From Eledone cirrhosa (lineage: Eukaryota): a stretch of DNA of 64,000 bases. Every line of letters begins with the position of its first letter. Position 1 is the first letter of the stretch. Below are positions 6,001 through 63,376 of this stretch, one piece after another. The translations under genes and the position numbers were made by a program. The stretch lies in assembly GCA_964016885.1 (NCBI GenBank), contig CAXHJY010000523.1:191424-255423 (forward strand), given 5' to 3'. The notes beneath the pieces were generated by a model. That model did no database searches and was not told where the DNA came from. It was given only the letters and a program-made list of their open reading frames with translations.

Positions 6001-9000
6001 GACACTGGTTGACAGCAAGACACACACAGGCTGAATATCCACAGTGACACTAGTTGACGGTAAGACACACACAGGCTGAATATCCACAGTGACACTAGTT
6101 GACAGTAAGACACACACACACACAGGCTGAATATCCACAGTGACACTAGTTGACAGTAAGACACACACAGGCTGAATATCCACAGTGACACTAGTTGACA
6201 GTAAGACACACACACACACAGGCTGAATATCCACAGTGACACTAGTTGACAGTAAGACGCACACAGGCTGAATATCCACAGTGACACTAGTTGACAGTAA
6301 GACACACACACACACACAGGCTGAATATCCACAGTGACACTAGTTGACAGTAAGACACACACACACACACACACACACAGGCTGAATATCCACAGTGACA
6401 CTAGTTGACAGTAAGACACACACACAGCCTGAATATCCACAGTGACACAAGCTGACAGTAAGACACACACACACAGGCTGAATATCCACAGTGACACTAG
6501 TTGACAGTAAGACACACACACACAGACCGAATATCCACAGTGACACTAGTTGACCGTAAGACACACACACACAGGCTGAATATCCACAGTGACACTAGTT
6601 GACCGTAAGACACACACACACAGGCTGAATATCCACAGTGACACTAGTTGACAGTAAGACACACACACACAGGTTGAATATCCACAGTGACACTAGTTGA
6701 CAGTAAGACACACACACACAGGTTGAATATCCACAGTGACACTAGTTGACCGTAAGACACACACACACAGACTGAATATCCACAGTGACACTAGCTGACT
6801 GTAAGACACACACAGGCTGAATATCCAGTGACACTAGTTGACAGTAAGACACACACACACAGGCTTAATATCAACAGTGACACTAGTTGACAGTAAGACA
6901 CACACACACAGGCTGAATAACCATATTGACACTAGTTGACTGTATCACACACATACGGGCTGAATATACACAGTGACACTAGTTGACAGTAAGACACACA
7001 CACACTCAGGCTGAATATCCACACTGACACTAGTTGACAGTAAGACACACACATACACAGGCTGAATAACCACAGTGACACTAGTTGACAGTAAGACACA
7101 CACACACACAGGCTGAATATCCACAGTGACACTAGTTGACAGTAAGAAACACACACACACAGGCTGAATATCCACAGTGACACTAGTTGACAGTAAGACA
7201 TACACAGGCTGAATATCCACAGTGACACTAGTTGACAGTAAGACACACACACACACAGGCTGAATATCCACAGTGACACTAGTTGACAGTAAGACACACA
7301 CACACACAGGCTGAATATCCACAGTGACACTAGTTGACAGTAAGACACACACACACACAGGCTGAATATCCACAGTGACACTAGTTGACAGTAAGAAACA
7401 CACACACACACAGGCTGAATATCCACAGTGACACTGGTTGACAGCAAGACACACACAGGCTGAATATCCACAGTGACACTGGTTGACAGCAAGACATACA
7501 CAGGCTGAATATCCACAGTGACACTAGTTGACAGTAAGACACACACACACACAGGCTGAATATCCACAGTGACACTGGTTGACAGCAAGACACACACAGG
7601 CTGAATATCCACAGTGACACTAGTTGACGGTAAGACACACACAGGCTGAATATCCACAGTGACACTAGTTGACAGTAAGACACACACACACACAGGCTGA
7701 ATATCCACAGTGACACTAGTTGACAGTAAGACACACACAGGCTGAATATCCACAGTGACACTAGTTGACAGTAAGACACACACACACACAGGCTGAATAT
7801 CCACAGTGACACTAGTTGACAGTAAGACGCACACAGGCTGAATATCCACAGTGACACTAGTTGACAGTAAGACACACACACACAGGCTGAATATCCACAG
7901 TGACACTAGTTGACAGTAAGACACACACACACACACACACACACAGGCTGAATATCCACAGTGACACTAGTTGACAGTAAGACACACACACACACACACA
8001 CACACACAGGCTGAATATCCACAGTGACACTAGTTGACAGTAAGACACACACACAGCCTGAATATCCACAGTGACACTAGTTGACAGTAAGACACACACA
8101 CACACAGGCTGAATATCCACAGTGACACTAGTTGACAGTAAGACACACACAGGCTGAATATCCACAGTGACACTAGTTGACAGTAAGACACACACACACA
8201 CACAGGCTGAATATCCACAGTGACACTAGTTGACAGTAAGACACACACAGGCTGAATATCCACAGTGACACTAGTTGACAGTAAGACACACAATTACACA
8301 CACAGGCTGAATATCCACAGTAACACTAGTTGACAGTAAGACACACACAGGCTGAATATCCACAGTGACACTAGTTGACAGTAAGACACACACACACAGG
8401 CTGAATATCCACAGGGACACAAGCTGACAGTAAGACACACACACACAGGCTGAATATCCACAGTGACACTAGTTGACAGTAAGACACACACACACACAGA
8501 CTGAATATCCACAGTGACACTAGTTGACAGTAAGACACACACACACAGGCTGAATATCCACAGTGACACTAGTTGACAGTAAGACACACACACACAGGTT
8601 GAATATCCACAGTGACACTAGTTGACAGTAAGACACACACACACAGGCTGAATATCCACAGTGACACTAGTTGACAGTAAGACACACACACACAGGCTGA
8701 ATATCCACAGTGACACTAGTTGACAGTAAGACACACACACACAGGTTGAATATCCACAGTGACACTAGCTGACTATAAGACACACACAGGCTGAATATCC
8801 AGTGACACTATTTGACAGTAAGACACACACACACAGGCTTAATATCAACAGTGACACTAGTTGACAGTAAGACACACACACACAGGCTGAATAACCACAT
8901 TGACACTAGTTGACTGTATCACACAAACACAGACTGAATATCCACAGTGACACTAGTTGACAGTAAGACACACACACACTCAGGCTGAATATCCACACTG

Positions 9001-12000
9001 ACACTAGTTGACAGTAAGACACACACACACACAGGCTGAATATCCACAGTGACACTAGTTGACAGTAAGACACACACACACACAGGCTGAATATCCACAG
9101 TGACACTAGTTGACAGTAAGAAACACACACACACACAGGCTGAATATCCACAGTGACACTAGTTGACAGTAAGACACACATACACAGGCTGAATATCCAC
9201 AGTGACACTGGTTGACAGCAAGACATACACAGGCTGAATATCCACAGTGACACTAGTTGACAGTAAGACACACACACACACAGGCTGAATATCCACAGTG
9301 ACACTGGTTGACAGCAAGACACACACAGGCTGAATATCCACAGTGACACTAGTTGACGGTAAGACACACACAGGCTGAATATCCACAGTGACACTAGTTG
9401 ACAGTAAGACACACACACACACAGGCTGAATATCCACAGTGACACTAGTTGACAGTAAGACACACACAGGCTGAATATCCACAGTGACACTAGTTGACAG
9501 TAAGACACACACACACACAGGCTGAATATCCACAGTGACACTAGTTGACAGTAAGACGCACACAGGCTGAATATCCACAGTGACACTAGTTGACAGTAAG
9601 ACACACACACACACACAGGCTGAATATCCACAGTGACACTAGTTGACAGTAAGACACACACACACACACACACACACAGGCTGAATATCCACAGTGACAC
9701 TAGTTGACAGTAAGACACACACACAGCCTGAATATCCACAGTGACACAAGCTGACAGTAAGACACACACACACAGGCTGAATATCCACAGTGACACTAGT
9801 TGACAGTAAGACACACACACACAGACCGAATATCCACAGTGACACTAGTTGACCGTAAGACACACACACACAGGCTGAATATCCACAGTGACACTAGTTG
9901 ACCGTAAGACACACACACACAGGCTGAATATCCACAGTGACACTAGTTGACAGTAAGACACACACACACAGGTTGAATATCCACAGTGACACTAGTTGAC
10001 AGTAAGACACACACACACAGGTTGAATATCCACAGTGACACTAGTTGACCGTAAGACACACACACACAGACTGAATATCCACAGTGACACTAGCTGACTG
10101 TAAGACACACACAGGCTGAATATCCAGTGACACTAGTTGACAGTAAGACACACACACACAGGCTTAATATCAACAGTGACACTAGTTGACAGTAAGACAC
10201 ACACACACAGGCTGAATAACCATATTGACACTAGTTGACTGTATCACACACATACGGGCTGAATATACACAGTGACACTAGTTGACAGTAAGACACACAC
10301 ACACTCAGGCTGAATATCCACACTGACACTAGTTGACAGTAAGACACACACATACACAGGCTGAATAACCACAGTGACACTAGTTGACAGTAAGACACAC
10401 ACACACACAGGCTGAATATCCACAGTGACACTAGTTGACAGTAAGAAACACACACACACAGGCTGAATATCCACAGTGACACTAGTTGACAGTAAGACAT
10501 ACACAGGCTGAATATCCACAGTGACACTAGTTGACAGTAAGACACACACACACACAGGCTGAATATCCACAGTGACACTAGTTGACAGTAAGACACACAC
10601 ACACACAGGCTGAATATCCACAGTGACACTAGTTGACAGTAAGACACACACACACACAGGCTGAATATCCACAGTGACACTAGTTGACAGTAAGAAACAC
10701 ACACACACACAGGCTGAATATCCACAGTGACACTGGTTGACAGCAAGACACACACAGGCTGAATATCCACAGTGACACTGGTTGACAGCAAGACATACAC
10801 AGGCTGAATATCCACAGTGACACTAGTTGACAGTAAGACACACACACACACAGGCTGAATATCCACAGTGACACTGGTTGACAGCAAGACACACACAGGC
10901 TGAATATCCACAGTGACACTAGTTGACGGTAAGACACACACAGGCTGAATATCCACAGTGACACTAGTTGACAGTAAGACACACACACACACAGGCTGAA
11001 TATCCACAGTGACACTAGTTGACAGTAAGACACACACAGGCTGAATATCCACAGTGACACTAGTTGACAGTAAGACACACACACACACAGGCTGAATATC
11101 CACAGTGACACTAGTTGACAGTAAGACGCACACAGGCTGAATATCCACAGTGACACTAGTTGACAGTAAGACACACACACACAGGCTGAATATCCACAGT
11201 GACACTAGTTGACAGTAAGACACACACACACACACACACACACAGGCTGAATATCCACAGTGACACTAGTTGACAGTAAGACACACACACACACACACAC
11301 ACACACAGGCTGAATATCCACAGTGACACTAGTTGACAGTAAGACACACACACAGCCTGAATATCCACAGTGACACTAGTTGACAGTAAGACACACACAC
11401 ACACAGGCTGAATATCCACAGTGACACTAGTTGACAGTAAGACACACACAGGCTGAATATCCACAGTGACACTAGTTGACAGTAAGACACACACACACAC
11501 ACAGGCTGAATATCCACAGTGACACTAGTTGACAGTAAGACACACACAGGCTGAATATCCACAGTGACACTAGTTGACAGTAAGACACACAATTACACAC
11601 ACAGGCTGAATATCCACAGTAACACTAGTTGACAGTAAGACACACACAGGCTGAATATCCACAGTGACACTAGTTGACAGTAAGACACACACACACAGGC
11701 TGAATATCCACAGGGACACAAGCTGACAGTAAGACACACACACACAGGCTGAATATCCACAGTGACACTAGTTGACAGTAAGACACACACACACACAGAC
11801 TGAATATCCACAGTGACACTAGTTGACAGTAAGACACACACACACAGGCTGAATATCCACAGTGACACTAGTTGACAGTAAGACACACACACACAGGTTG
11901 AATATCCACAGTGACACTAGTTGACAGTAAGACACACACACACAGGCTGAATATCCACAGTGACACTAGTTGACAGTAAGACACACACACACAGGCTGAA

Positions 12001-15000
12001 TATCCACAGTGACACTAGTTGACAGTAAGACACACACACACAGGTTGAATATCCACAGTGACACTAGCTGACTATAAGACACACACAGGCTGAATATCCA
12101 GTGACACTATTTGACAGTAAGACACACACACACAGGCTTAATATCAACAGTGACACTAGTTGACAGTAAGACACACACACACAGGCTGAATAACCACATT
12201 GACACTAGTTGACTGTATCACACAAACACAGACTGAATATCCACAGTGACACTAGTTGACAGTAAGACACACACACACTCAGGCTGAATATCCACACTGA
12301 CACTAGTTGATAGTAAGACACACACACACACAGGATGAATATCCACAGTGACACTAGTTGACAGTAAGACACACGCACACACAGGCTGAATAACCACAGT
12401 GACACTAGTTGACAGTAAGACACACACACACACAGGATGAATATCCACAGTGACACTAGTTGACAGTAAGACACACACACACAGGCTGAATATCCACAGT
12501 GACACTAGTTGACAGTAAGACACACACACACAGGCTGAATATCAACAGTGACACTAGTTGACAGTAAGACACACACACACACAGGCTGAATAACCACAGT
12601 GACACTAGTTGACAGTAAGACACACACAGGCTGAATATCCACAGTGACACTAGTTGACAGTAAGAAACACACACACACAGGCTGAATATCCACAGTGACA
12701 CTAATTGACAGTAAGACACACGCACATAGGCTGAATAACCACAGTGACACTAGTTGTGAGTAAGACACACACACACAGGCTGAATATCCACAGTGACACT
12801 AGTTGACAGTAAGACACACACACACAGGCTGAATATCCAGAATGACACTAGTTGACAGTAAGACACACACACACACACACACACACAGGCTGAATATCCA
12901 CAGTGACACTAGTTGACAGTAAGACACACAATTACACACACAGGCTGAATATCCACAGTGACACTAGTTGACAGTAAGACACACACACACAGGCTGAATA
13001 TCCAGAATGACACTAGTTGACAGTAAGACACACACACACACACACACACACACGCAGACTGAATATCCACAGTAACACTAGTTGACAGTAAGACACACCC
13101 AGGCTGAATATCCACAGTGACACTAGTTGACAGTAAGACACACACACACAGGCTGAATATCCACAGTGACACAAGCTGACAGTAAGACACACACACACAG
13201 GCTGAATATCCACAGTGACACTAGTTGACAGTAAGACACACACACACAGACTGAATATCCACAGTGACACTAGTTGACCGTAAGGCACACACACACAGGC
13301 TGAATATCCACAGTGACACTAGTTGACCGTAAGACACACACACACAGGCTGAATATCCACAGTGACACTAGTTGACACTAAGACACACACACACAGGTTG
13401 AATATCCACAGTGACACTAGTTGACAGTAAGACACACACACACAGACTGAATATCCACAGTGACACTAGCTGACTGTAAGACACACACAGGCTGAATATC
13501 CAGTGACACTAGTTGACAGTAAGACACACACACACAGGCTTAATATCAACAGTGACACTAGTTGACAGTAAGACACACACACACAGGCTGAATAACCACA
13601 TTGACACTAGTTGACTGTATCACACACATACGGGCTGAATATACACAGTGACACTAGTTGACAGTAAGACACACACACACTCAGGCTGAATATCCACACT
13701 GACACTAGTTGACAGTAAGACACACACATACACAGGCTGAATAACCACAGTGACACTAGTTGACAGTAAGACACACACACACACAGGCTGAATATCCACA
13801 GTGACACTAGTTGACAGTAAGAAACACACACACACAGGCTGAATATCCACAGTGACACTAGTTGACAGTAAGACACACACACACACAGGCTGAATATCCA
13901 CAGTGACACTAGTTGACAGTAAGAAACAGACACACACAGGCTGAATATCCACAGTGACACTGGTTGACAGCAAGACATACACAGGCTGAATATCCACAGT
14001 GACACTAGTTGACAGTAAGACACACACACAGGCTGAATATCCACAGTGACACTGGTTGACAGCAAGACACACACAGGCTGAATATCCACAGTGACACTAG
14101 TTGACGGTAAGACACACACACAGACTGAATATCCACAGTGACACTAGTTGACAGTAAGACACACACAGGCTGAATATCCACAGTGACACTAGTTGACAGT
14201 AAGACACACACAGGCTGAATATCCACAGTGACACTAGTTGACAGTAAGACACACACACACACACAGGCTGAATATCCACAGTGACACTAGTTGACAGTAA
14301 GACACACACAGGCTGAATATCCACAGTGACACTAGTTGACAGTAAGACACACACACACACAGGCTGAATATCCACAGTGACACTAGTTGACAGTAAGACA
14401 CACACACAGCCTGAATATCCACAGTGACACTAGTTGACAGTAAGACACACACACACACAGGCTGAATATCCACAGTGACACTAGTTGACAGTAAGACACA
14501 CACAGGCTGAATATCCACAGTGACACTAGTTGACAGTAAGACACACACACACACAGGCTGAATATCCACAGTGACACTAGTTGACAGTAAGACACACACA
14601 CAGCCTGAATATCCACAGTGACACTAGTTGACAGTAAGACACACACACACACAGGCTGAATATCCACAGTGACACTAGTTGACAGTAAGACACACACACA
14701 CACAGGCTGAATATCCACAGTGACATTAGTTGACAGTAAGAAACTCACACACACAGGCTGAATATACACAGTGACACAAGTTGACAGTAAGACACACACA
14801 GGTTGAATATCCACAGTGACACTAGTTGACAGTAAGACACACACACACACAGGCTGAATATCCACAGTGACACTAGTTGACAGTAAGACACACACAGGCT
14901 GAATATCCACAGTGACACAAGTTGACAGTAAGACACTCACACACACAGGCTGAATATTCACAGTGACACAAGTTGACAGTAAGACACACACACACACAGG

Positions 15001-15632
15001 CTGAATATCCACAGTGACACTAGTTGATAGTAAGACACACACACACACAGGCTGAATATCCACAGTGACACTAGTTGACAGTAAGACACTCACACACACA
15101 GGCTCAATATCCACAGTGACACAAGTTGACAGTAAGACACACACAGGCTGAATATCCAGTGACACTAGTTGACAGTAAGACACACACACACACAGGCTGA
15201 ATATCCACAGTGACACTAGTTGACAGTAAGACACTCACACACACAGGCTGAATAGCCACAGTGACACAAGTTGACAGTAAGACACACACAGGTTGAATAT
15301 CTACAGTGACACTAATTGACAGTAAGACACACACACAGACTGAATATCCAGTGACACTAGCTGACAGTAAGACACACACACACAGACTGAGTATTCACAG
15401 TGACACTAGTTGACAGTATGACACACAGAGTCTGAATATCCACAGTGACACTAGTTGACAGTAAGACACACACACACAGGCTGAATATCAACAGTGACAC
15501 TAGTTGACAGTAAGACACACACACACAGGCTGAATATCCACAGTGATACTAGTTGACAGTGAGAGAGAGAGAGAGAGAGAGAGGGTGAATATCCACAGTG
15601 ACACTAGTTGACTGTATCACACACACACAGGC
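1..15632. repeat. Tandem minisatellite: 37-bp core GGCTGAATATCCACAGTGACACTAGTTGACAGTAAGA + variable (CA)n, unit ~45-63 bp; runs off the left edge
   Basis: Read directly; roughly 300 units. Diagnostic variants recur with ~3297-3299 bp period (336-aa repeat ORFs at 3635, 6932, 10231). Confidence 0.98.
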
Positions 15633-26959: not shown

Positions 26960-29900
26960 ATAGCAGTATGCATTGTTGTGACACCAATACATATTGTTGT
27001 TACATCAATACATATTAGTGTTATATCAATAGATATTCCTGTCACATCTATAGATATTGCTGTTACATCAATACATATTGGTGTTACATCAATACATATT
27101 TGTGTTACATCAATGCATATTGGTGTTACAACAATACATATTGGTGTTACATCTATACATATTGGGTGTTACATCAATAAACATTGGTGTTACATCAATA
27201 AACATTGGTGTTACATCAATACACATTGCTGTTACATCAATAGACATTGGTGTTACATCAATAGACATTGGTGTTAAATCAATAGGCATTGGTGTTACAT
27301 CAATAGATGTTGGTGTTACACCAATAGACATTACTGTTAGAACAATACACATTGGTGTTACATCAATAGATATTACTCTAATATCAATACATATCATCTT
27401 TCATTAATATATATTACTGTTAGGGTGGTGGATTGGCAGTATCAGTAGAGGGTTTGACGCCATGCTTTCCAGCATAGTTACGTCCCTTTACGATCTGAGT
27501 TCAAATCCCGCCGAGGTTGACTTTGCCTTTCATCCTTACGGGGTCGATAAAATAAAGTACCAGTAATGCACTGGATAATTGCTGGCCTCGTGCCTAAAGT
27601 AGAAACAATTAATATATAATACTGTTACATCAATAGACATTGGGGTGACATCAATACACATTGGTGTTACATCAATGCATATAACTACTACATCAATACA
27701 CATTGGTGTTACATCAATAGATATTGGTGTTACATCAATACACATTGGTGTTACATAAATGCACATTGGTGTTACATCAATACACATTGGTGTTACATCA
27801 ATACACATTGGTGTTACATCAATATATATGGTGTTACATCAATACTTATTGGTGTTACATCAATACATATTGGTGTTACATAAATACACATTGGTGTTAC
27901 ATCAATAGATATTCGGTTACAATACTTATTGGTGTTACATCAATACACATTAGTGTTACATCAATACACATTGCTGTTACATCAATAGATATTGGTGTTA
28001 CATAAATACACATTGGTGTTAAATACATATTGGTGTTCCATCAATAGGCATTGTTGTTACATCAAAAGACATTACTGTTACATCAATACATATAACTGTT
28101 ACATCAATAGACATAACTGTTACATCAATAGACATTACTGTTACATCAATACATATAACTGTTACATCAATAGACATTACTGTTACATCAATACATATAA
28201 CTGTTACATCAATACATATAACTGTTACATCAATAGACATTACTGTTACATCAATAGACATTACTGTTACATCAATAGACATTACTGTTACATCAATACA
28301 TATAACTGTTACATCAATAGACATTACTGTTACATCAATACATATAACTGTTACATCAATACATATAACTGTTACATCAATAGACATTACTGTTACATCA
28401 ATACATATAACTGTTACATCAATAGACATTACTGTTACATCAATAGACAATACTGTTACATCAATACATATAACTGTTACATCAATAGACATTACTGTTA
28501 CATCAATACATATAACTGTTACATCAATAGACATTACTGTTACATCAATAGACATTACTGTTACATCAATAGACATTACTGTTACATCAATACATATAAC
28601 TGTTACATCAATACATATAACTGTTACATCAATAGACATTACTGTTACATCAATAGACATTACTGTTACATCAATACATATAACTGTTACATCAATAGAC
28701 ATTACTGTTACATCAATACATATAACTGTTACATCAATAGACATTACTGTTACATCAATAGACATTACTGTTACATCAATAGACATTACTGTTACATCAA
28801 TACATATAACTGTTACATCAATACATATAACTGTTACATCAATAGACATTACTGTTACATCAATAGACATTACTGTTACATCAATACATATAACTGTTAC
28901 ATCAATACATATAACTGTTACATCAATAGACATTACTGTTACATCAATACATATAACTGTTACATCAATAGACATTACTGTTACATCAATACATATAACT
29001 GTTACATCAATAGACATTACTGTTACATCAATAGACATTACTGTTACATCAATACATATAACTGTTACATCAATAGACATTACTGTTACATCAATACATA
29101 TAACTGTTACATCAATAGACATTACTGTTACATCAATAGACATTACTGTTACATCAATAGACATTACTGTTACATCAATACATATAACTGTTACATCAAT
29201 ACATATAACTGTTACATCAATAGACATTACTGTTACATCAATAGACATTACTGTTACATCAATACATATAACTGTTACATCAATAGACATTACTGTTACA
29301 TCAATACATATAACTGTTACATCAATAGACATTACTGTTACATCAATAGACATTACTGTTACATCAATAGACATTACTGTTACATCAATACATATAACTG
29401 TTACATCAATACATATAACTGTTACATCAATAGACATTACTGTTACATCAATAGACATTACTGTTACATCAATACATATAACTGTTACATCAATACATAT
29501 AACTGTTACATCAATAGACATTACTGTTACATCAATACATATAACTGTTACATCAATAGACATTACTGTTACATCAATACATATAACTGTTACATCAATA
29601 GACATTACTGTTACATCAATAGACATTACTGTTACATCAATACATATAACTGTTACATCAATAGACATTACTGTTACATCAATACATATAACTGTTACAT
29701 CAATAGACATTACTGTTACATCAATAGACATTACTGTTACATCAATACATATAACTGTTACATCAATAGACATTACTGTTACATCAATAGACATTACTGT
29801 TACATCAATAGACATTACTGTTACATCAATACATATAACTGTTACATCAATAGACATTACTGTTACATCAATACATATAACTGTTACATCAATAGACATT

Positions 29901-31033
29901 ACTGTTACATCAATAGACATTACTGTTACATCAATACATATAACTGTTACATCAATAGACATTACTGTTACATCAATACATATAACTGTTACATCAATAG
30001 ACATTACTGTTACATCAATACATATAACTGTTACATCAATAGACATTACTGTTACATCAATAGACATTACTGTTACATCAATACATATAACTGTTACATC
30101 AATAGACATTACTGTTACATCAATACATATAACTGTTACATCAATAGACAATACTGTTACATCAATACATATAACTGTTACATCAATAGACATTACTGTT
30201 ACATCAATAGACATTACTGTTACATCAATACATATAACTGTTACATCAATACATATAACTGTTACATCAATAGACATTACTGTTACATTAATAGACAATA
30301 CTGTTACATCAATACATATAACTGTTACATCAATACATATAACTGTTACATCAATAGACATTACTGTTACATCAATACATATAACTGTTACATCAATAGA
30401 CATTACTGTTACATCAATACATATAACTGTTACATCAATAGACATTACTGTTACATCAATACATATAACTGTTACATCAATAGACATTACTGTTACATCA
30501 ATACATATAACTGTTACATCAATACATATAACTGTTACATCAATAGACATTACTGTTACATCAATACATATAACTGTTACATCAATAGACATTACTGTTA
30601 CATCAATACATATAACTGTTACATCAATACATATAACTGTTACATCAATAGACATTACTGTTACATCAATACATATAACTGTTACATCAATAGACATTAC
30701 TGTTACATCAATACATATAACTGTTACATCAATACATATAACTGTTACATCAATAGACATTACTGTTACATCAATAGACAATACTGTTACATCAATACAT
30801 ATAACTGTTACATCAATACATATAACTGTTACATCAATACATATAACTGTTACATCAATAGACATTACTGTTACATCAATACATATAACTGTTACATCAA
30901 TAGACATTACTGTTACATCATTAGACATTACTGTTACATCAATACATATAACTGTTACATCAATAGACAATACTGTTACATCAATACATATAACTGTTAC
31001 ATCATTAGACATTACTGTTACATCAATACATAT
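26960..31033. repeat. 21-bp satellite; homogeneous core ~28076-31033 with two variants, CTGTTACATCAATAGACATTA and CTGTTACATCAATACATATAA; degenerate left flank
   Basis: Read directly; 7-aa periodicity of the 1014-aa and 997-aa ORFs. Confidence 0.97.
27423..27611 (+). mobile_element. SINE family A inserted in the degenerate part of the 21-bp satellite
   Basis: Full-length match; TAATATATA(T/A)TACTGTTA duplicated on both sides. Confidence 0.9.
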
Positions 31034-31221
31034 TGACTCCGCACTTCATGTCATAGTGCTCGGGCTGGTTTTCAGCAAGGCAGAGGGTTGGAATAACCTG
31101 GGTCAACAGGTATGAGAGTCACACTATGTCATTCAGTCAACTAACTTCATGCTATAGGAATGTTTGATCAATAGTGATTGAGAGTTATAAACCAATAAGA
31201 CTTAATTTGTGAGATCATTGA

Positions 31222-31410: not shown

Positions 31411-31561
31411 TTTCTAATGGTTTCTACTTATGTTGCTCATGTGGGGACATTTTCAAAATACACTACCTGTCATTATTTACTAATATTCAAGAATTTGAAG
31501 GGATTTATTAATGGAATTAACTTTTTCATTATTAAGCTAGTGTTTAGAACATAAACTAACA

Positions 31562-32345
31562 ATGGTCACACAATGCAGATCCTGGGTACACAAGAGATGT
31601 AGCAAGATAACAGGCAAACTAACAGGTAGGCAGAAATACGTTTGCAGTAGATGTACAGGGAAATTAGACAGTAGAAGTCGCATTGATAGACACATTTTTC
31701 AAATGCAGGCGGGTGCTATAGAAGTGGTGGATAGCTTCCGGTACCTAGGAGATCAGATTAGCATGGGAGGGGGGTGTTCCGAGGCCATAGTATCCAGAAT
31801 AAGGACGGGTTGGAAGAAGTTTAGGAAGCTGCTTCCTCTGCTGACGAAGAAGGGTTTCTCCCTGTGTACGAAAGGCCGGTTATATGATGCCTGTGTGAGG
31901 AACGCGATGCTGCATGGTAGTGAGACATGGGCAGCAACTGCAGAGGATATGCGACAGCTGGAGAGAAATGAGGCAAGCATGCTTCGTTGGATGTGCAATG
32001 TCAATGTATGTGAACAACCCAACATAAATGTGTTGAGAGAGAAACTGTGTCTGAGAGGGATAGAATGTAGTGTGCGAGAGAGGAGACTGCGATGGTATGG
32101 ACATGTGATGCGCATGGCGGATGACTGATGGGTGAAGAAGTGCCAGGAAATGCCAGTTGAAGGAAGACGTGGGAGAGGTTGACCACAAAAAACATGGGCG
32201 GAGGTAGTGAGAACAGACCTCAGATCGCTGAAGCTCACGGTGGAGATGACGAAGGACCGTGACGAGTGGAGAGATGCTGAATAAGACCCGTCCCACCCTT
32301 GCAAGCAGGGAAAAGCGGACATAAAATGATGATGATGACGATGAT
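31562..32345 (+). mobile_element. 5'-truncated RTE/BovB-type LINE (ORF2 C-terminal region, premature stops, (GAT)n tail)
   Basis: IEVVDSFRYLG, RIRTGWKKF, KGRLY..CVR.AMLHGSETW, RRLRWYGHVMRM and G-R-R-G-R-G-*-P-Q-K-T-W motifs; stops near 32128 and 32180. Confidence 0.92.
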
Positions 32346-34374: not shown

Positions 34375-35174
34375 TAATACAGTTTGAATAAAAGACAGGG
34401 TGGTCATTATTGGATTGCCTGTTATATGTCTGCTTGATCGTTACTGACCTAAAGTTAAATAATTACAACATTTGAGTGGTTCTACTTTGTCCTAGCATCC
34501 TTTCAACTAACTCAGTCCAGTTAGTCAAACATAGCCAGCCAGCCAGCCAACTAACCAACCATCCCACTATCCAACTACCCCACCAACCAGACCAACCAAT
34601 CAACCAACCATCCAACCAGTCAACTAACCAACCAACCAACCAGCCAACACACCAGGCAACCAGCCAGCCATCTACCCAACCTTCCTTAACTTCAATCCAC
34701 TAACAACTAGTCCCCCACCAAATAATTGTTTCTACTTTAGGCACAAGGCCAGCAATTACCCAGTGCATAAAGTACCAGTAATGCACTGGGTAATTGCTGG
34801 CCTTGTGCCTAAAGTAGAAACAATTATTTGGTGGGGGACTAGTTGTTAGTGGATTGAAGTTAAGGAAGGTTGGGTAGATGGCTGGCTGGTTGCCTGGTGT
34901 GTTGGCTGGTTGGTTGGTTGGTTAGTTGACTGGTTGGATGGTTGGTTGATTGGTTGGTCTGGTTGGTGGGGTAGTTGGATAGTGGGATGGTTGGTTAGTT
35001 GGCTGGCTGGCTGGCTATGTTTGACTAACTGGACTGAGTTAGTTGAAAGGATGCTAGGACAAAGTAGAACCACTCAAATGTTGTAATTATTTAACCTTAG
35101 GTCAGTAACGATCAAGCAGACATATAACAGGCAATCCAATAATGACCACCCTGTCTTTTATTCAAACTGTATTA
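34375..35174. repeat. 800-bp near-perfect palindrome (394-bp arms, 12-nt spacer)
   Basis: Identical 75-aa ORFs on opposite strands (34476 +, 34846 -); one mismatch seen between the arms. Confidence 0.97.
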
Positions 35175-42524: not shown

Positions 42525-43071
42525 TATATAATTTGATATATAATATACATACACCATTAATCTGTTTCTTTCATATCTGGTGAAACTCGCTATTACCAGC
42601 TAAACATGCATATATGTAGGAGAAAGTCATGTAGATATGTACATATAATCATATAAACACACACTCATACATATTTATACTTTCATATAAATATAGATAC
42701 AAATATCATGTGTGAAGCTCAAATTTTCGAACTTAAGAAAGCACAGAGAAAATAAATTTATAAGATGCAGAAAATAGTTGCAATTACAGTCAGTTGCTAT
42801 ATAATAGCTAATAAAAGAGCAAAGACCCTTAGATGGAAAAAATGTCAGCAGCCTCTACAAAGAATTGAACTCAATATCTGGGAGACACAGACTTTGATTC
42901 TTCATAGCAGCCACTAGCAATATTTTTTCCATCCAAAAAGGGTCTTTACCTTATTTTTGTAACCTATTTTACTGACTGTAATTGCTGTTATTTTCTGTGA
43001 TTGAGCTTCCAACAACTTATATACTTCGCCCTTTCTCTGGAAATCTTTTACATGTAAGGTATATATTATTT

Positions 43072-43154
43072 GTATTTAATCGATTCTGAGGAAATTATTC
43101 TAAGATGGGATATTCTTGTTAGTCTAATGAAATGGTTGTAAATAAATTAAATGC
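43072..43154 (+). ncRNA. Type I hammerhead ribozyme motif
   Basis: GTATTTAAT-CG-ATT CTGAGGA A ATTA...TAAT GAAA T GGTT G TA AAT-AA-ATTAAATGC: intact core and extended stem I. Confidence 0.6.
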
Positions 43155-44210
43155 TTTAATTAAAATCCTTGTTAATATTTATTCTTTATATATAAATATA
43201 TGTGTGTGTGTGTATATATATATATATGGTGGCTGCCAACTCATTTTCGAGTACGGCTACTACTTTATATCCATGTAGGAGAACCCCTACTGATGCGCTG
43301 AACGAGTGTGACTTTTTAGTTCAGCCAGCGACTAGAAAACTCTGGTACAAACACTACACTTGTGACAATTACTGACACATAGTGCTGGGCCCATGGTACC
43401 ATGTGATGACAAGTGCAGAGAGATCTCCAGATATAAAGCAATACCTGTGCCGTGAAGCTTTTATAGTGAGCAAAGGCACTGCACAAAGCCAGTCCCACTC
43501 TCTTAACCAAGATGATATTTACCAAAAAGAAGAACAAGTCAACATCATTGGATACTATCAGGGTTGCAGGTGTTATATCAGAGTTTTCCTTCTATAATTC
43601 TGCCTTGACAAAGGCTAAGGGGTCATCTCTCCCGGTGATTTTGGATGGCCATTGACTCTTAAGAGCTCCTTTGTCTTTGACAGGTTTTGTTTTTAGTCCT
43701 GCAGGATGTCCAAAGTCACCCTCCTCACCAAGAAACCTTGGTGGGATTGCCAGTTTAGTCGCCAATGACCCGACTATGAGACAGGTTGTACTGGGATACA
43801 TGTTACCAGTAGCACCAACTGGTGACCTGACATACTATATATATATATTTACATGCATACATACATATATATATATGTGTGTGCATACAATCACTTGTAT
43901 GTTCATTTTTGAACCTAAACAAAATGGCGGTTCTAACGGTTTATAACTTGAACCTTTTTAATATCAAGATTCCACCTTAACTGTAGGTCTATTACTTTGG
44001 TGATGTGTTTTGATTTTTGAGTTAATATGTTATAAATCTTTCTTTCGGCTCTGTTGAGAATACTAAATCACACATTTTTTTCTCCTGTACTGATATCGAT
44101 TTTTAATCAGTATTCATATCATCTATGTGCATATCAAGGATTTAGTGTTTGAAACAAATTGAATTAAAAATATATGTATTCATAAATCACTGTTATTCTC
44201 TCCAGCATTC

Positions 44211-44384
44211 AGTATCAGTAGAGGGTCGGACGCCATGCTTTGACGCATAGAGTTACGGCCCTTGCCATTCTGAGTTCAAATCCCGCCGAGGTTAACTTTG
44301 CCTTTCATCCTTACGGGGTCGATAAAATAAAGTACCAGTAATGCACTGGGTAATTGCTGGCCTTGTGCCAAAAGTAGAAAAAAT

Positions 44385-44386
<2 letters not shown>
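44211..44386 (+). mobile_element. SINE family A
   Basis: Match to the family consensus. Confidence 0.9.
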
Positions 44387-44415
<29 letters not shown>

Positions 44416-44497
44416 TATGTATTTCTGTAGAAAAGGTAAAGGAAAGAAGAATGCTCTATGTATAGTACAGAGCTATTCAATTGTTTATTATGTAATT

Positions 44498-44533
<36 letters not shown>

Positions 44534-45083
44534 CATATCGTAGGTCCTCAACACTTGATATAATTATAAGTGCGCTATTGTGACGAACTGTGCACCTGTT
44601 TTTTCTATGTCACGGTTGCATGCCAGATCTTGTGTCACTACTTATAATTTGCCTGTCTATCTTTTACTTTGACTGCCTCTCTTTCTCTCCCCCTTCCCAA
44701 TTCCCTGTCAAATAGTCTTTGCAAGGTGACTGCATTGCTTAATCTGACTATACTATATCACGTTTCTTTTCGTAACTATAATGAGGTCTTGAAGAAGGTC
44801 AGTGTGGTGTTGAATTTTTTTGAAGACCTGTTTGTTTGTGAATATATGAGATACATAAGATATGGTAGCATCACATTCTTAGTGCCTTATCTTTCTCTGT
44901 AGTGAGGTTCCATTTTCTCTCAATTTTCAATTAATTTTGAGAATCATAAAAAAATTGTAAAAATTTAATAAAATAATTAGCCTTTTCTCTGTTAAGATGA
45001 CGTTTGGAACATTACTTAACAGCAATTTCTTTTTTTTTTTAAATGTTGATGGAAGATTTTAATATCAATTTGAATATGTTTAA

Positions 45084-45301
45084 CCCTTTAGCATTTACAT
45101 TACTCTATATTTACTATTGTATTTTCATGATAAACACTTTATCTCACATAATTATCTCACATAATATCGAATCTACAGGATTTTGATATCTATTTTTAGA
45201 TGAATACCTTAAAATAAGTATGAGCAGTCAGTTATGGCCAGTTTGAACAGAAAGAGGTGAGAGAATTCTGGCCAGATATGGCCAGTTTAAATGCTAAAGA
45301 G
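45084..45301. mobile_element. TTAA-flanked MITE, family 1
   Basis: Homologous to 32738-32958, with TTAA on both sides; nested in a family-2 remnant ending ~45363. Confidence 0.85.
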
Positions 45302-45913
45302 TTAAATGGAGAGTTTTGTACCATAAAAGCAGGATGGTTTTAGGGAGTTTTGTATCAAAAGGGTTAACCATTTTAATTATCATAATTTGAATGAAATGCA
45401 CTTCCTATGTGTTTTAAATAATTTTGAAATAATCAAGAATTTGGAGGGAAATATCTAACTTTGAGATTTGGAACATAACAAAAGTTCTTACATAGAAATT
45501 ATGATGAAACGTTTTTTGCTAAATATAAACAATTTGAAATAAAAAATGTTGTATTATAGAATCATGAACGACCTCAGGCAGGTTAATAAACATCAACTGC
45601 TACATACACTATGACAGAATAAAAATAGAAAGGAAACAAAAAACAGTAAATTTTATCTGAAAAACTGATAAGCTGGCAGAAGTGTATTAACTGAAATATT
45701 TACATTACAGCGTTACCTGGTTTTGAAATAATCTTTTAACCAGTTATATTATGTGTAAGATAGACAAATGTTTAGTAGGCCACAATTTCTGCACATATAA
45801 TATATATATCATGGTGATATACACAGACACACCCATATACATATACATATACATATATATATATATAAACAAGCAGTCAACAGTTTAAAATTAACTTTGT
45901 TTATTCATATTTG

Positions 45914-45970
45914 CTGTTATATATATTTCGGTGAAAGCCATTATACAACAGCTATGCCCTCATCAGACAG
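45914..45970 (-). ncRNA. Minimal type I hammerhead ribozyme motif, canonical core
   Basis: Minus strand: CTGT CTGATGA GG GCAT AGCTGTT GTAT AATGGCT TTCA CC GAAA T ATAT A TA ACAG. Confidence 0.75.
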
Positions 45971-46875
45971 GTAGAATCTGAACAGAAAAGACAGAAAAAA
46001 ATTAACGATGGCATACAGCTTACTTCTGTTATTTCGATTTTTTTATATGCTCCGTGCTGAATTTTGGTGTTGTTTTCTCAAGGTACCGGTATATACATAT
46101 ATATATATTATGAGATACAAATACATCTAGAAAATAAGTTTGGTTATTTGGAAGCCGGACAATGCATGTGAGATATAAGTGCCAAGGTAATAAGAATTTG
46201 AGAAAATAGATAAAGAAAAGAAAAAACAAAAGAACTGAGATAAAACAGTGAGAACGATAGAAAGATACCATAGCAATTTTAATGATCCCAAATATTTTTG
46301 GATTTACCATCCATTATCAAGGGAAGTGCGTGGGGTCAGGGGAGGCTCAGAGAGAAACCTGAGAAATGTCGCGGGTGGCTGTTCAATTTAATTTTTTAAA
46401 AATATATATATATATATATCCATATGTGGTTCTTGTCTGATGACCCTGAGATAAGCAGGAGGAATATGTTCTAAATACAAAATAATACTGGTGTTAAAGA
46501 GAGAAACACTTTTTATGAATGAAATTTATAACCGGAAACAAATTTTCTAGATCTCTCAACTGGAAACGAATTTTCTAGATCTCTCAGTTCTCATAGTGTA
46601 AGCTTAAGTTGTTCTTTGAACAAAACTATCTCGGTCACATACATGTCCTTAGCCATCCAACAAGCTTGGTGGGGAGGTAAGCTCCTGAAACTGAGAAGGA
46701 GAATTTGGGGAAATGGCTAACCACTAAGATATTGAAACAATTGTAATATGCAAATTAAGTTTGTATATATGTTGCAACACTGACTTTGACTCTTTTAAAA
46801 CTCTGTCTATATATATATATATAAAGGAAATGAATACAAAGAGTTTAAAACCGTTAAAACATGTTTATATAATTG

Positions 46876-46918
46876 TGCACCTACGTACGTTTCGCCCTGA
46901 GCAGACTTATCAAGGGCA
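46876..46918 (-). ncRNA. Minimal type I hammerhead ribozyme motif, U3-A8 variant
   Basis: Minus strand: TGCCC TTGATAA GTC TGCTCAG GGC GAAA C GTAC G TA GG(T)GCA. Confidence 0.7.
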
Positions 46919-46958
46919 TGGAAAGCAAAATAATGTTCAATATAGGACATTATTTTGC

Positions 46959-46999
<41 letters not shown>

Positions 47000-47233
47000 A
47001 TTAGGTATCAAGAGAGAGAAGAGAATGGAAAGATGGTCGATACATTTATTTAGTTGCCAATAGTTTATGCATGTGTGCTCAATACTCGTGCCTACAGGGT
47101 TAAATATTAGAGGCGTCAATATTTAGTGGGCGAGAAAAAATAAGCAGAGCGATTATAAAGGAAATGAATACAAAGAGTTTAAAACTGTTAAAACATGTAT
47201 TTATAATCATATATGTGTGTGTGCATGTGTGTA

Positions 47234-47670
47234 TATCATTATCATTTAACATTCATTCTCCCTTCTAGCAAGAGTTGGATGGGTCTTCACAGACTGAGTA
47301 AGTACTCAAGCAGGGCTACTGACCTCTCAGATAGGTCAGGGTGCTGCATCGCCCATACATATGATCCTGCACTCAACAAAGTGCATTTTATCCTGATACC
47401 AACACTAAAGAAGCTATCATGTTTCTGACACAACTGAAGGGTCCTCCTGGCCATTTGTTTGGCAAGCTTTCTATGGCTGGATGCCCTTCCTATCACCAAC
47501 CATTTTACAGTGTGGACTGAGTGCATTTATTGTGTAGATGACCAATATATAAGATGATGTTCTGCAGCTGACACAATTAAAGGTCTTCTTGACCTTTTTT
47601 GGCATAGTTTCTAGAGTTGTATGCCCTTCCTATCACTAACCATTTTACAGGGTGTAATGGGTGCACCAGA
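47234..47670 (-). mobile_element. Decayed RTE/SINE-B 3' tail fragments
   Basis: ATCATTTAAC start and two GGATGCCCTTCCTATCAC-type motifs. Similar remnants at ~38642-38920 and ~60889-61135. Confidence 0.65.
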
Positions 47671-50230
47671 GAGGCTGTTAGTCATTGTTTCAACTGACGA
47701 GCCCTCTCTGCCCTACTGGAGATGGGACGAAAGAAAGGTAGATAAGTGTGATCTTATGAGTGTATGACAAATATGGTTGTATTTGACAGGGTAGGAAGAA
47801 GGAGCAACCTCAGATAGCGTAGGTGTATCAGGACTGTAAGGGTGGGGAAATGTAGTAATGGCAAGAATAGCTAAGGAGGGATATTGAAAGGAGCATGGAT
47901 GGGGTGGGGAGAGATTTTGGTTGCTTCTATCTCTAAAAATAAAAATAAAAAATTATTGAGTGATTTCTAATAAAAACAAAACACACTATTACAGGGAACA
48001 AAGGAGGAGATGAAAATAAGAAAAAGAAAACAAAAGGATAAAACAATGAAAGAAAGAGAGGGGGAGGAGCAGACACTACACCCCAGTCTAAGCAGTGCCA
48101 TAGCCACACCCTGCAGAGAAAATGGCAAATGCGTTATGTCAGAGAATGGCCAGAGACACCTGCTGCAACAGTCACCCCACTTCACAGGGCTCCCTTTTCA
48201 AGTGAGCTGCTATCTTTCCAACTTTACGGAAGAAATCATCAGTGCGGGGGACCAAGGATGCCAAAGATCTTGACAGCAGACAAATTATTTTTGGTTTTAT
48301 AGTTCTGAGATTAAATTCTGCTGAGGTTAGCTTTGTCTTTTATCCTCCTAAGACTGATAAATAAAGTACCAATGTAGGGAGGTGCAGTGATGGAATCGGT
48401 TTTTGTTCATTAGCTATCGTCTGCTTTCAAAATATCACAGCTTGTCTAACTAGTATTCCTATGATCAAAGGCATTCAAGCTGGTACCATCTTACATATTT
48501 TCATTCATATGGTTGTGTATGTAAATATACTTTAGTTGTAGAAGTGACATCCTCCACTACCAACTAATTTGCCATCCGCCTCTGGGTCTCAGCCGACAGA
48601 ATGGAGAATGAATTGCCCTAGAGGACAGTGAGGGAGACACACTGAAACAGCCACTCCACGAGTTCCAATAACACCCTTGTCCATTTTGGGTGATGGATTT
48701 AATCTATTACCCAGTTTTACCACCTGGCCCTTGGATGTATTTAGCAGACTTTCAACAACATGGATTCTAATCAAGTAAATTTACAAGCCAACATAAATCA
48801 ATCATATTTTCTTCATTTTGCAACTTTTTTTCCTGGATTTGCCAATACCAATAAGTGGTTGCATGGCCTACTAAAAATAGCAGCCACATTTCCTTCCAAT
48901 TGCATCATACTATCTTGAAAAATGAAGGGCACACTGGACAGTGTAATACTTGAATGTATTCCATTTAATTGGTTATAAATCTGCTTGAAGAAAACTGTAA
49001 GGAACTAAAAACAATAGCAACACCTACCACAACTTTCACCGTACCACTAGTAGAACAACTATCACTACTACTACCTCTCCACCACCAGCGTCACCATCAC
49101 CACCAACACTGCTACCACCACCAGCTTTACTGCCCTCATCACCACTACCAACATTACCAACCACAGCATCACTACCACCATTACCAACACCAACATCACA
49201 CTACCACCACCACCATCACCAGCATTATTAGTATTTTCAAGAGCAACTGTTAAAGCCATCACTTGTTGTACCCACCTGACAGGAAACTTACCATTGAATC
49301 TGCTGTCCATCAAACTACCACCCTACCATGTATTTCCCTCTCTTACTTCTTCCTCCAACTCCACTTGAAATCTTCAGAAGAAAACCAAAGAGGGAGTGAA
49401 GGAAGGAAGCTGTAGTGAAATACTTACTTACACTCTGCTGACAAGAGGAGTGTCACTCTAGAAAGTGAGCAAGTTGCTTATTTCCCCTCTCTACTATATA
49501 TTTTAAGGACCTGCTGTTTGTCTTCTCAGGTTTCAATTCATTCAAGGTGTCTAGTTTAAACACTCCCTCACCACCACCATCATTCCTACCATCCAACCAG
49601 GTCTTCCTGACTCTTTCTCTCCCTGCTCACTCTCATCTAAATTGACCTACCACCCATCTCCCTTTAAACACTCACAGCAAAGCCCTTCACAGAGCCAGCT
49701 CCCTTCAAGATAACTGGTGTCAATGACCCCACTAATTACTTTATGACAGAACAAGCATTCCTGTCAAGCTCCACATTCCCAAGATGCAGATACCAAGAAA
49801 ATGGAGGAATTATTTTAGGCCATGGCTATAGCCAAATAATATTATGTGTCTGTCTGTATATTATACTAGCAGTGGTACCCGGCGTTGCATGGAATAAGGT
49901 ATTTTGGAACGTGGGCCGCCAACTCTCTCTCTCTATCTATATATAGATAGAGAGACGGTGAATTGGCAGAGTCGTTAAGACATTGGATAGAATACTTTAT
50001 GGTATTCATCCCACCTCATTGCACGCTGAGAGTTCTTTGCCTTTCATCCTTTCGAGGTCGATAAAAAAATACTAATCCAGTACTGGAGTTGATTCTTCCT
50101 CTATAGAAAAAATCAGCTGTGTTCAGATCTGGAGAAAGAGTCGGATTCCTCCAGGTTCAAAAGGGCCCTAGACATGCCATATGATGGGGTCCTACGATTC
50201 CACAAGGAGTTATGGGATCTTTATTATATA

Positions 50231-62132: not shown

Positions 62133-63376
62133 AAAATTAACCTGTCTAAGACTAAAGTTCTAGTTTGTAGGAAGGAAAATAGGGCACCGGTTCCATCCGG
62201 GAAATGGCCATGCTCAGTGTGTAGGAAAGGAGTAGGTAGAAACTCCATTTTATGTCCCAAATACAAAGTATGGGTGCATAAAAGATAAGCTAACTAAGAA
62301 CATAGATTTTATATGTGGCCGGTGCTCTGGTGCAATAAGTAGCAGCAAGTGCCCACAAAATACTAGCTCATTCAATTGCACAGATGGTTCTATAGAAATA
62401 GTGGACACCTTCTGTTACCTGGGTGACAAAATCAGCAGTGGTGGAGGGTGCTCTGAAAGTACAGTAGCTAGGGTCAGAACTGGATGGAAAAAGTTCAGAG
62501 AGCTTATACCACTATTAGCCGCTAAAGGGTTCTCTCTAAAAATGAAAGGCAGGCTGTATGATGCCTGCATACGAACAGCAATGTTACATGGCAGTGAGAC
62601 CTGGGCATTGTGTGCAGAGGATATATGCAGTTGGAGAGGAACGAAGCTTGCATGCTCCGCTGGATGTGTAATAGTAATATACGTGAACGGCAAAGCATAA
62701 ACGAACTAAGGGAAAAATTAGAAATAAGAGGGATCAGATGTTGTTTACTCGATAGAAGACTACGTTGGTATGGTCACGTGATGCGCATGAAAGACGACAG
62801 CTGTATAAAAAAAGTGCAGGGCAATAAAAATAGACGGTAGCCACGGAGTAGGCAGACCCAGAAAAACGTGGGACGACTTGATAAATTCCGACCTCACACA
62901 TTTACACCTCTCCAAGACAATGTCACTGGACTGAGATCTTTGGCGCTACACAGTAATACAGAAGACCCGCCTTACCTAAGTACAAATTGAAACCTACTAC
63001 AGTCAGTAGGCACCTCTAACAAAAATACACCCTCGTCCCACTACCCCTACCCCATCCACACCATCCCTTTCAATGTAAAGTTATGTTGGTACCACAACAC
63101 ATCCAGTCCGGAATAAATGAGGTTGTGTAGGTGTCACGACAAAAAAAACACACAGTCCACGCTGTAATGTGGCCGTGTAGGCACAGTAAAAACCTCCCAG
63201 ACCACACTGTAAACGTGGTTAGTGTTAGGAAGGGCATCCAGCCGTAGAAAACTCGCCAGACAATCTTATGCGAGCAAGACAACCACTCTTGCCTCAAGTG
63301 GGAAAACTCCCGTCCAAACCCATGCAAGCGTGGAAGATGGACATTAAACGATGATGATGATGATGATGATGATGAT
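62130..63376 (+). mobile_element. 5'-truncated RTE/BovB-type LINE with frameshifts, long 3'UTR and (GAT)n tail
   Basis: LKINLSKTKVL..GKWPCSVCRKGVGRNSILC...WVHKR*..FICGRC...IEIVDTFCYLGD...LHGSETW...RRLRWYGHVMRM; 3'UTR contains TAGGAAGGGCATCCAGCCGTAGAAA. Confidence 0.92.

What the first reader, a model, noticed from the sequence alone, without database searches (positions are those of the whole stretch)
45914..45970. Best-preserved hammerhead: every catalytic-core nucleotide intact
The minus strand has CUGAUGA, the G10.1-C11.1 pair, a stem II capped by a 7-bp hairpin (AGCTGTT/AATGGCT), GAAA and a 1-bp stem III extension with palindromic ATAT loop. The cleavage triplet is AUA and stem I is CTGT/ACAG with a possible ATTC/GAAT extension. 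AATAAA follows ~9 nt later, then (TA)n. It is the most likely of the set to still self-cleave (inference).
Basis: partly seen in the sequence, partly recalled or inferred. Interest (0 to 1): 0.72.

Follow-up and report, generated by a model that had tools for sequence, protein, structure and literature searches.

The report
Decayed hammerhead from a jumping gene
This is a real hammerhead (self-cutting RNA) motif, one of many related copies of a small repeat that is likely the cut-off end of a Penelope-type jumping gene, but this copy has lost several base pairs that its relatives keep and is predicted to fold into a non-cutting shape, so it is an ordinary, likely inactive remnant.

Summary
The motif is there letter for letter (45970-45914, minus strand) and is not chance: a strict descriptor gives 1 hit in the window and 0 in 1,500 shuffles. 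It sits in a ~220-nt element between (TA)n runs (46089-45868). The element is a dispersed repeat: 607-662 contigs per run of one sample and 366 in a second organism match it. In those relatives the core and the palindromic stem III carry no listed variant, while stem positions vary in pair-compatible ways. This copy is not well preserved: it breaks two stem II pairs and the fifth stem I pair that most relatives keep. An 11-bp rival helix covers the cleavage site (pair probability 0.82-1.0). Its 2-bp stem III needs a partner, and no second copy lies in the window. A neighbour 950 nt away also has a complete (U3-A8) core. Best reading: a 5'-truncated, decayed Penelope-like element end with a dimer-type type I hammerhead, a published kind. 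The link to a Penelope ORF and cleavage itself are untested. The scan has noted such elements many times elsewhere in this genome. Low interest.

The parts
45868..46089 (-). Whole repeat copy (~220 nt) between two (TA)n runs; likely a 5'-truncated end (pseudo-LTR) of a Penelope-like element or a non-autonomous derivative
   Evidence: TA runs on both sides; contigs of relatives span 45885-46081 and none of the listed related pieces bridges to the next element at 46109 (table 8, 16 of 3,669 pieces shown); 17 X4 contigs run on beyond 46081 with other letters, median 110 nt; single copy in the window
45914..45970 (-). Type I hammerhead motif
45960..45966 (-). Core C3-A9, CUGAUGA
   Evidence: no variant at 12% or more in 4 of 4 runs, but depth here is only about 5% of that at GAAA
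45930..45959 (-). Stem II: a 13-position register with a 4-nt loop; 10 of 13 paired in this copy, 12 of 13 with family-majority letters (C.C at position 4 is shared)
   Evidence: register; family letters
45918..45929 (-). GAAA, 2-bp stem III with palindromic UAUAUA, U16.1 and A17; predicted cut 3' of 45918
   Evidence: homodimer of the 8-nt strand only -3.2 kcal/mol
45913..45952 (-). Rival 11-bp helix 45952-45942 / 45913-45923 covering the cleavage site, stem I 3' strand and stem III
   Evidence: pair probabilities 0.82-1.00 in 45905-45975; MFE
45971..46023 (-). Intron-like stretch (inferred): GUAAG at 46023, pyrimidine tract, and in most relatives AG at 45972-45971 directly before helix I; this copy has AC there and a private AG at 45979-45978
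   Evidence: 18 of 20 pyrimidines in 46000-45981; family letters at 45971 and 45978; same layout described for Drosophila virilis Penelope; splicing not tested
45900..45905 (-). AAUAAA, polyadenylation-signal-like
   Evidence: use not tested
45865..45904 (-). 3' tail folding as a bulged hairpin up to the TA junction
   Evidence: -10.4 kcal/mol, z -3.83, 1 of 200 shuffles as good; 65-75 contigs per run share a similar, slightly longer tail (loose ends at 45885)

Best explanation
This is a type I hammerhead motif inside a ~220-nt dispersed repeat copy that sits between TA runs; the copy is likely a 5'-truncated, decayed end of a Penelope-like retroelement (or of a non-autonomous element copied by one) and is predicted not to cut itself on its own. 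In the parent elements the ribozyme likely formed a 5-bp stem I and a long stem II, and cut after AUA only when two copies paired through the palindromic stem III or when the element's protein helped it fold (inferred from published relatives). A Penelope-type reverse transcriptase likely wrote this copy into a TA microsatellite starting near the tail hairpin and stopped early (inferred). Since then it has drifted: the conserved core reflects selection on the parents plus too little time for loss here, not upkeep of this copy (inferred). Shown: sequence, repeat status, family variants, TA flanks, absence of a partner in the window. Computed: misfolding. Not shown: link to a Penelope ORF, transcription, cleavage.
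For: Repeat: 662, 607 and 658 contigs (X1-X3, one sample) and 366 (X4, another organism) lie on 45884-46000; summed depth up to 29,577 against about 10 on the unique flank (the tool warns this is no copy number). Structure kept in the family: of 55 testable positions (45915-45969) 11 vary at 12% or more in at least one run; 0 of 13 core and 0 of 6 palindrome positions, 11 of the other 36 (Fisher p 0.005; 0.009 without the site private to this copy; core alone p 0.036-0.07). The listed letters at 9 of 9 polymorphic stem sites pair with a letter listed at the partner site, including both-side changes at 2.1/1.1 (45967 U>C, 45917 A>G) and 10.1/11.1 (45959 G>A, 45930 C>U). Decay of this copy: G45957, U45935, C45971. 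Misfold: hammerhead fold -3.1 (-5.9 without stem III) against MFE -11.9; double hammerhead -18.8 against -23.8 for two misfolded monomers. Anatomy matches published PLE hammerheads: long helix II, 4-5-bp helix I, palindromic helix III, mostly single scattered motifs, intron end at helix I in D. virilis; (TA)n insertion and 5' truncation in PLEs including octopus families. Single min-HHRs showed no detectable cleavage in vitro; the Anolis PLE hammerhead needed protein; AUA was the slowest of four triplets post-transcriptionally.
Against: No RT or GIY-YIG remnant next to it: six-frame Pfam scan of 43001-50000 gave 1 weak unrelated match, and no published consensus matched, so 'Penelope' rests on anatomy. 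The extra nucleotide between 9 and 10.1 typical of PLE min-HHRs is absent in the best register. The tool does not phase variants, so both-side changes are not shown on one molecule; only contigs 80% alike were counted; positions are not independent. Nearest-neighbour folding ignores Mg2+, tertiary contacts, co-transcriptional folding and protein help, and it also misfolds the neighbour motif by a similar gap. Two G-C pairs still close stem II at the core. AUA is a natural, working triplet and ranked second of four during transcription.
Confidence: 0.75

Rival explanations
1. One reading: this copy is still a working ribozyme, as a monomer or as a homodimer through the UAUAUA palindrome.
For: All 13 core positions, G10.1-C11.1 and a second G-C pair, 4-bp stem I and an allowed triplet are intact. 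It is the only exact C3-G8 core with palindromic stem III in the window. Axolotl hammerheads with 1-2-bp helix III cleave weakly as monomers and well as dimers.
Against: Three family pairs lost; rival helix with p 0.82-1.0; all-A-U dimer helix -3.2 kcal/mol; no second copy in 64 kb; the neighbour's palindrome is not complementary (heteroduplex +1.0 kcal/mol); no known transcript.
Confidence: 0.12
2. The repeat is a solo monomer of a non-LTR retrozyme (a small circular-RNA parasite) and not a truncated end of a protein-coding Penelope-like element. The copy would be decayed in this case too.
For: Size about 220 nt fits retrozyme monomers (220-240 bp in coral); high copy load; no ORF near; a preprint derives animal retrozymes from PLE pLTRs, so the two grade into each other.
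Against: No tandem unit here; relatives continue 5' beyond 46081 and end 3' in AT-rich sequence; none of the joints shown links the element's end to its start (15 of 76 shown); helix II is long and helix I short, unlike the canonical 4-bp/6-bp retrozyme type; intron-like tract and AAUAAA fit a Pol II pLTR.
Confidence: 0.2
3. The copy has been taken over by the host as a cis element (acceptor, polyA site or RNA-cutting switch) in an unseen transcript.
For: It holds an acceptor-like AG, AAUAAA and an intact core.
Against: These features come with the family; no host exon was recognised in 43001-50000; private changes weaken the fold.
Confidence: 0.03
4. Chance arrangement in AT-rich DNA.
For: No Rfam hammerhead match; loose descriptor hits in 110 of 1,500 shuffles; hammerhead fold is not the MFE.
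Against: Strict descriptor 0 of 1,500; hundreds of related contigs in two organisms with pair-compatible variation.
Confidence: 0.01

Closest known systems
Type I hammerheads in pseudo-LTRs of metazoan Penelope-like elements (Cervera and de la Pena 2014, PMC4209133; parts 1-2 of 4 of the text read)
   Same: Long helix II, 4-5-bp helix I, G10.1-C11.1, small palindromic helix III, mostly single dispersed motifs, many families per genome; intron end at the start of helix I as in D. virilis Penelope (here seen only as family-majority AG).
   Different: No extra nucleotide between 9 and 10.1; helix II register of 13 positions with a shared C.C mismatch; no linked ORF found.
Hydra-clade and other (TA)n-targeting PLEs (Craig et al. 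2021, PMC8557442; passages and part 2 of 59 of the supplement read)
   Same: (TA)n insertion, 5' truncation, hammerhead near the 3' end followed by a short tail; an octopus family (Hydra-1_oBim) has a listed hammerhead; Hydra-2_aMil has the same ctgt/acag stem I and A17.
   Different: All Hydra motifs in the table have 3-4-bp non-palindromic stem III; Hydra-1_oBim's motif is different in sequence; no match to this family's short motifs in the supplement.
Poseidon_Ac of Anolis (PMC11167929; passages)
   Same: PLE hammerhead with AT-rich target preference and a stem-loop near the copy end.
   Different: There the ORF starts inside stem II and cleavage was shown (protein-assisted); here no ORF and no test.
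Animal non-LTR retrozymes (PMC7229834, passages; bioRxiv 10.64898/2026.07.22.740005, part 1 of 5)
   Same: Short non-coding repeat with a type I hammerhead whose weak helix III favours dimers.
   Different: Not in tandem here; helix sizes are of the PLE type; no circular RNA evidence.

Membership tests
Hammerhead ribozyme, type I | Core C3 U4 G5 A6 N7 G8 A9, G12 A13 A14, A15.1-U16.1, H17 | tested here: met
Hammerhead ribozyme, type I | Three helices can form around the core, helix I open | tested here: met
   4 + 10 of 13 + 2 pairs; pair-compatible variation in relatives
Hammerhead ribozyme, type I | This copy adopts the active fold | tested here: inconclusive
   Model disfavours it by 6.0-8.8 kcal/mol, pair probabilities at most 0.003; model lacks Mg2+ and protein
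Hammerhead ribozyme, type I | Site-specific self-cleavage | not testable with these tools
   needs transcription assay
Rfam hammerhead families | Score at the family's gathering threshold | tested here: not met
PLE min-HHR type (PMC4209133) | Long helix II, short helix I, G10.1-C11.1, palindromic 15.2-16.2 and loop 3 | tested here: met
PLE min-HHR type (PMC4209133) | Unpaired nucleotide between A9 and 10.1 | tested here: not met
   best register pairs G45959 directly with C45930; so filed as working like these motifs, not as a strict min-HHR
Penelope-like element | RT plus GIY-YIG ORF joined to the repeat | tested here: inconclusive
   none in 43001-50000; no whole genome held, so longer family members could not be read
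Penelope-like element | (TA)n insertion, 5' truncation, shared 3' tail | tested here: met
Penelope-like element | Spliceosomal intron in the pLTR | tested here: inconclusive
   donor-like and acceptor-like letters only; no RNA run to show splicing
Hydra clade of PLEs | Hydra-type RT/EN; in the published table a 3-4-bp stem III | tested here: not met
   stem III here is 2 bp with palindrome; protein not available
Non-LTR retrozyme | Two or more consecutive tandem units each with a hammerhead | tested here: not met
   single copy in window; criterion; other loci not visible
Non-LTR retrozyme | Circular RNA expressed | not testable with these tools
   no RNA run available

The most novel reading that the evidence does not exclude
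The family carries a built-in OFF switch for its ribozyme: the distal 5' arm of stem II (GCUGUUG) repeats the stem I 5' arm and can pair with the cleavage site, an upstream loop-less copy of the 3' half (GAAAUAACAG, 46035-46026) offers a second substrate strand, and the fifth stem I pair is the G of the intron's acceptor AG, so splicing or the element's protein would decide whether and where the RNA is cut.
Probability: 0.1. Interest if true: 0.55.

Novelty: new member of a known kind. Interest (0 to 1): 0.15.

Why it matters
The copy itself matters little: hammerheads at the ends of Penelope-like elements are published, also for an octopus family, and this scan has noted many in this genome. 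The useful lesson is practical: an intact core is a poor guide to activity, and the family-majority form, not this copy, is what should be assayed. If the alternative pairing and the acceptor-in-stem-I layout proved conserved and functional, they would give a handle on the open question of what PLE hammerheads do and how their cutting is controlled.

Tried and rejected
Rfam scans: nothing relevant. No whole genome is held, so family members were seen only through contig and read tables (table 3 shows 40 of 276 rows). Sequencing runs: no RNA holder listed; this says nothing on expression. Metagenome scans: 0 exact matches to the 3' half; 13 loci for a gapped pattern, 0 of 13 homologous by nhmmer. 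Craig et al. supplement: 0 relevant hits for 6 short motifs; line breaks could hide matches; only part 2 of 59 was read. Read ends at 45889 in the RAD runs were not used as a boundary, since they lie at a TTAA site and may be restriction cuts. AUUC/GAAU extension: no support in the model; family letters A/G at 45977 neither support nor break it. Heterodimer with the 46913 motif: palindromes not complementary. A complete second hammerhead upstream using UUGAGAA at 46081 and GAAAUAACAG: rejected, no stem I partner and no 10.1-11.1 pair (not found). Type III-like use of the upstream strand: -2.0 kcal/mol against MFE -28.1. Inverted relation between this tail and the tail at 46820-46873: seen by eye, not recovered by blastn or nhmmer, dropped. 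Tail hairpin in neighbours: weak (z 0.68 and -1.74). Folding of the family-majority form and of a spliced form was not computed, so how far the private changes tip the balance is inferred from pair counts only. Not-in-print checks: 'octopus' + 'hammerhead ribozyme' 5 papers, 4 listed, none on this family; 'cephalopod' + 'Penelope' + 'retrotransposon' 15 papers, 14 listed; the Octopus vulgaris repeat paper PMC13282606 has 0 occurrences of hammerhead or ribozyme in its main text (its repeat library and supplements not seen). Repbase and Dfam were not available, so the family may already be named there.

Full report
Observation. A strict type I descriptor finds only this site in the window and nothing in 1,500 local dinucleotide shuffles; a loose one finds 2 sites, and 110 of 1,500 shuffles have a hit. 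Rfam does not score it. The window is animal-type DNA full of microsatellites, satellites and short repeats; earlier scan notes call the genome cephalopod or octopus-like, which I did not test.

The element. The motif lies in a ~220-nt stretch, 46089-45868, with TA runs on both sides. There is no second copy in the window by blastn-short or nhmmer. No genome is held, so I laid public contigs and reads on it. On 45884-46000, 662, 607 and 658 contigs of three runs of one sample and 366 contigs of another organism align at 80% or more; summed depth peaks at 29,577 against about 10 on the unique flank (the tool warns that this is not a copy number, and X1-X3 may be the window's own sample). Full-span contigs differ from this copy at 12-20 of about 105-117 letters (32 of 2,302 pieces shown). 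Listed pieces of relatives cover 45885-46081 or 46109-46383 but not both, so the upstream neighbour is a separate element; 17 contigs of X4 continue beyond 46081 with other letters, so this copy looks 5'-truncated. 65-75 contigs per run share a slightly longer version of the 3' tail ending in AT-rich sequence.

What the family conserves. In one search differences can be listed for 45915-45969 (55 positions). Eleven vary at 12% or more in at least one run. None is among the 13 core positions or the 6 palindrome positions; 11 of the other 36 vary (Fisher p 0.005; 0.009 without 45957, which is private to this copy; for the core alone 0.036 to 0.07 depending on which sites are dropped). One variable site is in loop 2. 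At the 9 polymorphic stem sites the listed letters pair with a letter listed at the partner: 45967 U>C (13% in X1, 13% in X4) with 45917 A>G (20%, 8%); 45959 G>A (9%, 10%) with 45930 C>U (9%, 29%); 45931 C>U opposite G; 45935 A or G opposite U; 45940 U>C opposite G; 45952 G>A and 45937 U/C. In X4 the CpG partner of C45930, G12, stays under 12% while C>U reaches 29%. Limits: variants are not phased, only about 5% of the depth reaches CUGAUGA, the 80% cut-off favours conservation, and sites are not independent. Even so the pattern is that of a fold kept in the parent elements.

How this copy differs. With majority letters stem II pairs at 12 of 13 positions, with one shared C.C; this copy pairs 10 of 13. 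It has G45957 where 96% (X1) and 90% (X4) have U, breaking pair 3, and U45935 where 99.6% and 97.6% have A or G, breaking pair 6. It has C45971 where 91% and 88% have G, which would give a fifth stem I pair with C45913. One change goes the other way: C45937 makes G-C where most have G-U. U45945 (81-89% other letters) extends a rival helix, 45952-45942 with 45913-45923, 11 bp, pair probability 0.82-1.00, which covers the cleavage site, the stem I 3' strand and stem III; G45957 takes part in a second misfold with the core (p 0.30-0.37). The hammerhead fold scores -3.1 kcal/mol (-5.9 without stem III) against -11.9 for the MFE; the double hammerhead scores -18.8 against -23.8 for two misfolded monomers. 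These are nearest-neighbour figures without Mg2+, tertiary contacts or protein, and the neighbour motif shows a similar gap (8.5-8.9), so they rank risk and do not prove inactivity.

The 'set'. A wider census (C3-G8 or U3-A8 core, one further mismatch) gives 4 sites in the window: this one, 46913 (U3-A8, complete core, CGUACG palindrome, homodimer -9.8 kcal/mol), 46320 (U3-A8, G12 changed to A) and a weak purine-rich hit at 49377. U3-A8 is a natural covariant in PLE hammerheads. So this site is the only exact canonical core, but not the only complete one, and the neighbour's dimer helix is stronger. The two palindromes cannot pair with each other.

What it is like. Cervera and de la Pena 2014 (PMC4209133; parts 1-2 of 4 read) describe thousands of type I motifs per animal genome in and from PLE pLTRs, with long helix II, 4-5-bp helix I and palindromic helix III; a single S. 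mansoni motif showed no detectable cleavage, dimers little; in D. virilis Penelope the intron ends at the 5' end of helix I. Here a GUAAG at 46023, a pyrimidine tract (18 of 20) and, in most relatives, AG at 45972-45971 give the same layout; splicing is inferred only. Craig et al. 2021 (PMC8557442; passages, supplement searches, part 2 of 59) report 5' truncation, tails and (TA)n targeting, and list an octopus Hydra family with a hammerhead; those motifs have 3-4-bp stem III and none matches this family. The Anolis PLE hammerhead cut only with protein and was not needed for insertion in vitro (PMC11167929, passages). AUA is natural, slowest of four triplets after transcription, second of four during it (PMC1636495, passages). 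Retrozymes are tandem units (PMC7229834, passages; bioRxiv 10.64898/2026.07.22.740005, part 1 of 5); this copy is single. No RT or GIY-YIG remnant lies in 43001-50000, and the extra nucleotide after A9 is missing, so I file it as working like a PLE-end hammerhead, clade unknown.

Mechanism. Likely history: a parent element transcribed from its pLTR carried the ribozyme between an intron and a polyA signal; cutting after AUA needed a second copy or protein help; a PLE enzyme copied the RNA's 3' part into a TA run and stopped after about 220 nt; the copy then drifted.

Loose ends. The first 7 pairs of the rival helix use letters that are the family majority as far as listed, because the distal stem II arm repeats the stem I arm. 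Upstream, GAAAUAACAG at 46035-46026 repeats the 3' half without the palindrome (5 of 20,000 shuffles, pattern chosen after the fact), though a fold using it is not favoured. These could be a switch or duplication by-products; I give the switch 0.1.

Verdict. Observation confirmed; interpretation partly supported. A real but decayed solo member of a known kind of element. Chance that this copy cleaves measurably alone or as a homodimer: about 0.12. Interest 0.15.

Noticed in passing
window 46918-46876 (-): Second hammerhead of another family: U3-A8 core, GAAA, CGUACG palindrome, GUA triplet, complete core. High depth in X1, X5 and X6 but zero in X4 over 46818-46946; a second copy of its 54-nt tail at 47154-47207.
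   Followed up: partly
window 46324-46286 (-): Third hammerhead remnant, U3-A8 core with G12 changed to A; stems I and II form well in the model (p 0.62-0.98). It lies in a separate repeat at about 46109-46383.
   Followed up: partly
window 46437-46480 (+) and 46728-46774: CUGAUGA on the plus strand at the edge of another TA-embedded repeat, and a very high-depth repeat end at 46732-46774; might belong to the rearranged-hammerhead families in earlier scan notes.
   Followed up: no
window 46035-46026 (-): GAAAUAACAG repeats the hammerhead's 3' half without the palindrome, just before the donor-like GUAAG; 5 of 20,000 shuffles (post hoc); no matching 5' half found.
   Followed up: partly
window 34375-35174: Perfect 394-bp inverted repeat with a 12-nt spacer.
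   Followed up: no
window 1-15629 and 26972-31035: A 49-bp satellite (317 copies) and a 21/42-bp satellite (194 copies).
   Followed up: no
window 44210-44390 and about ten other places: Abundant ~180-bp SINE-like repeat at 86-96% identity; a second ~230-bp repeat at 45077-45306 with three other copies.
   Followed up: no
window 31541-32128 (+) and 62236-62700 (+): Two similar open frames that look like LINE fragments by eye; Pfam gave only a sub-threshold PHD match for the first and nothing for the second.
   Followed up: partly
window 46922-46961: Short inverted repeat directly 5' of the 46913 motif.
   Followed up: no
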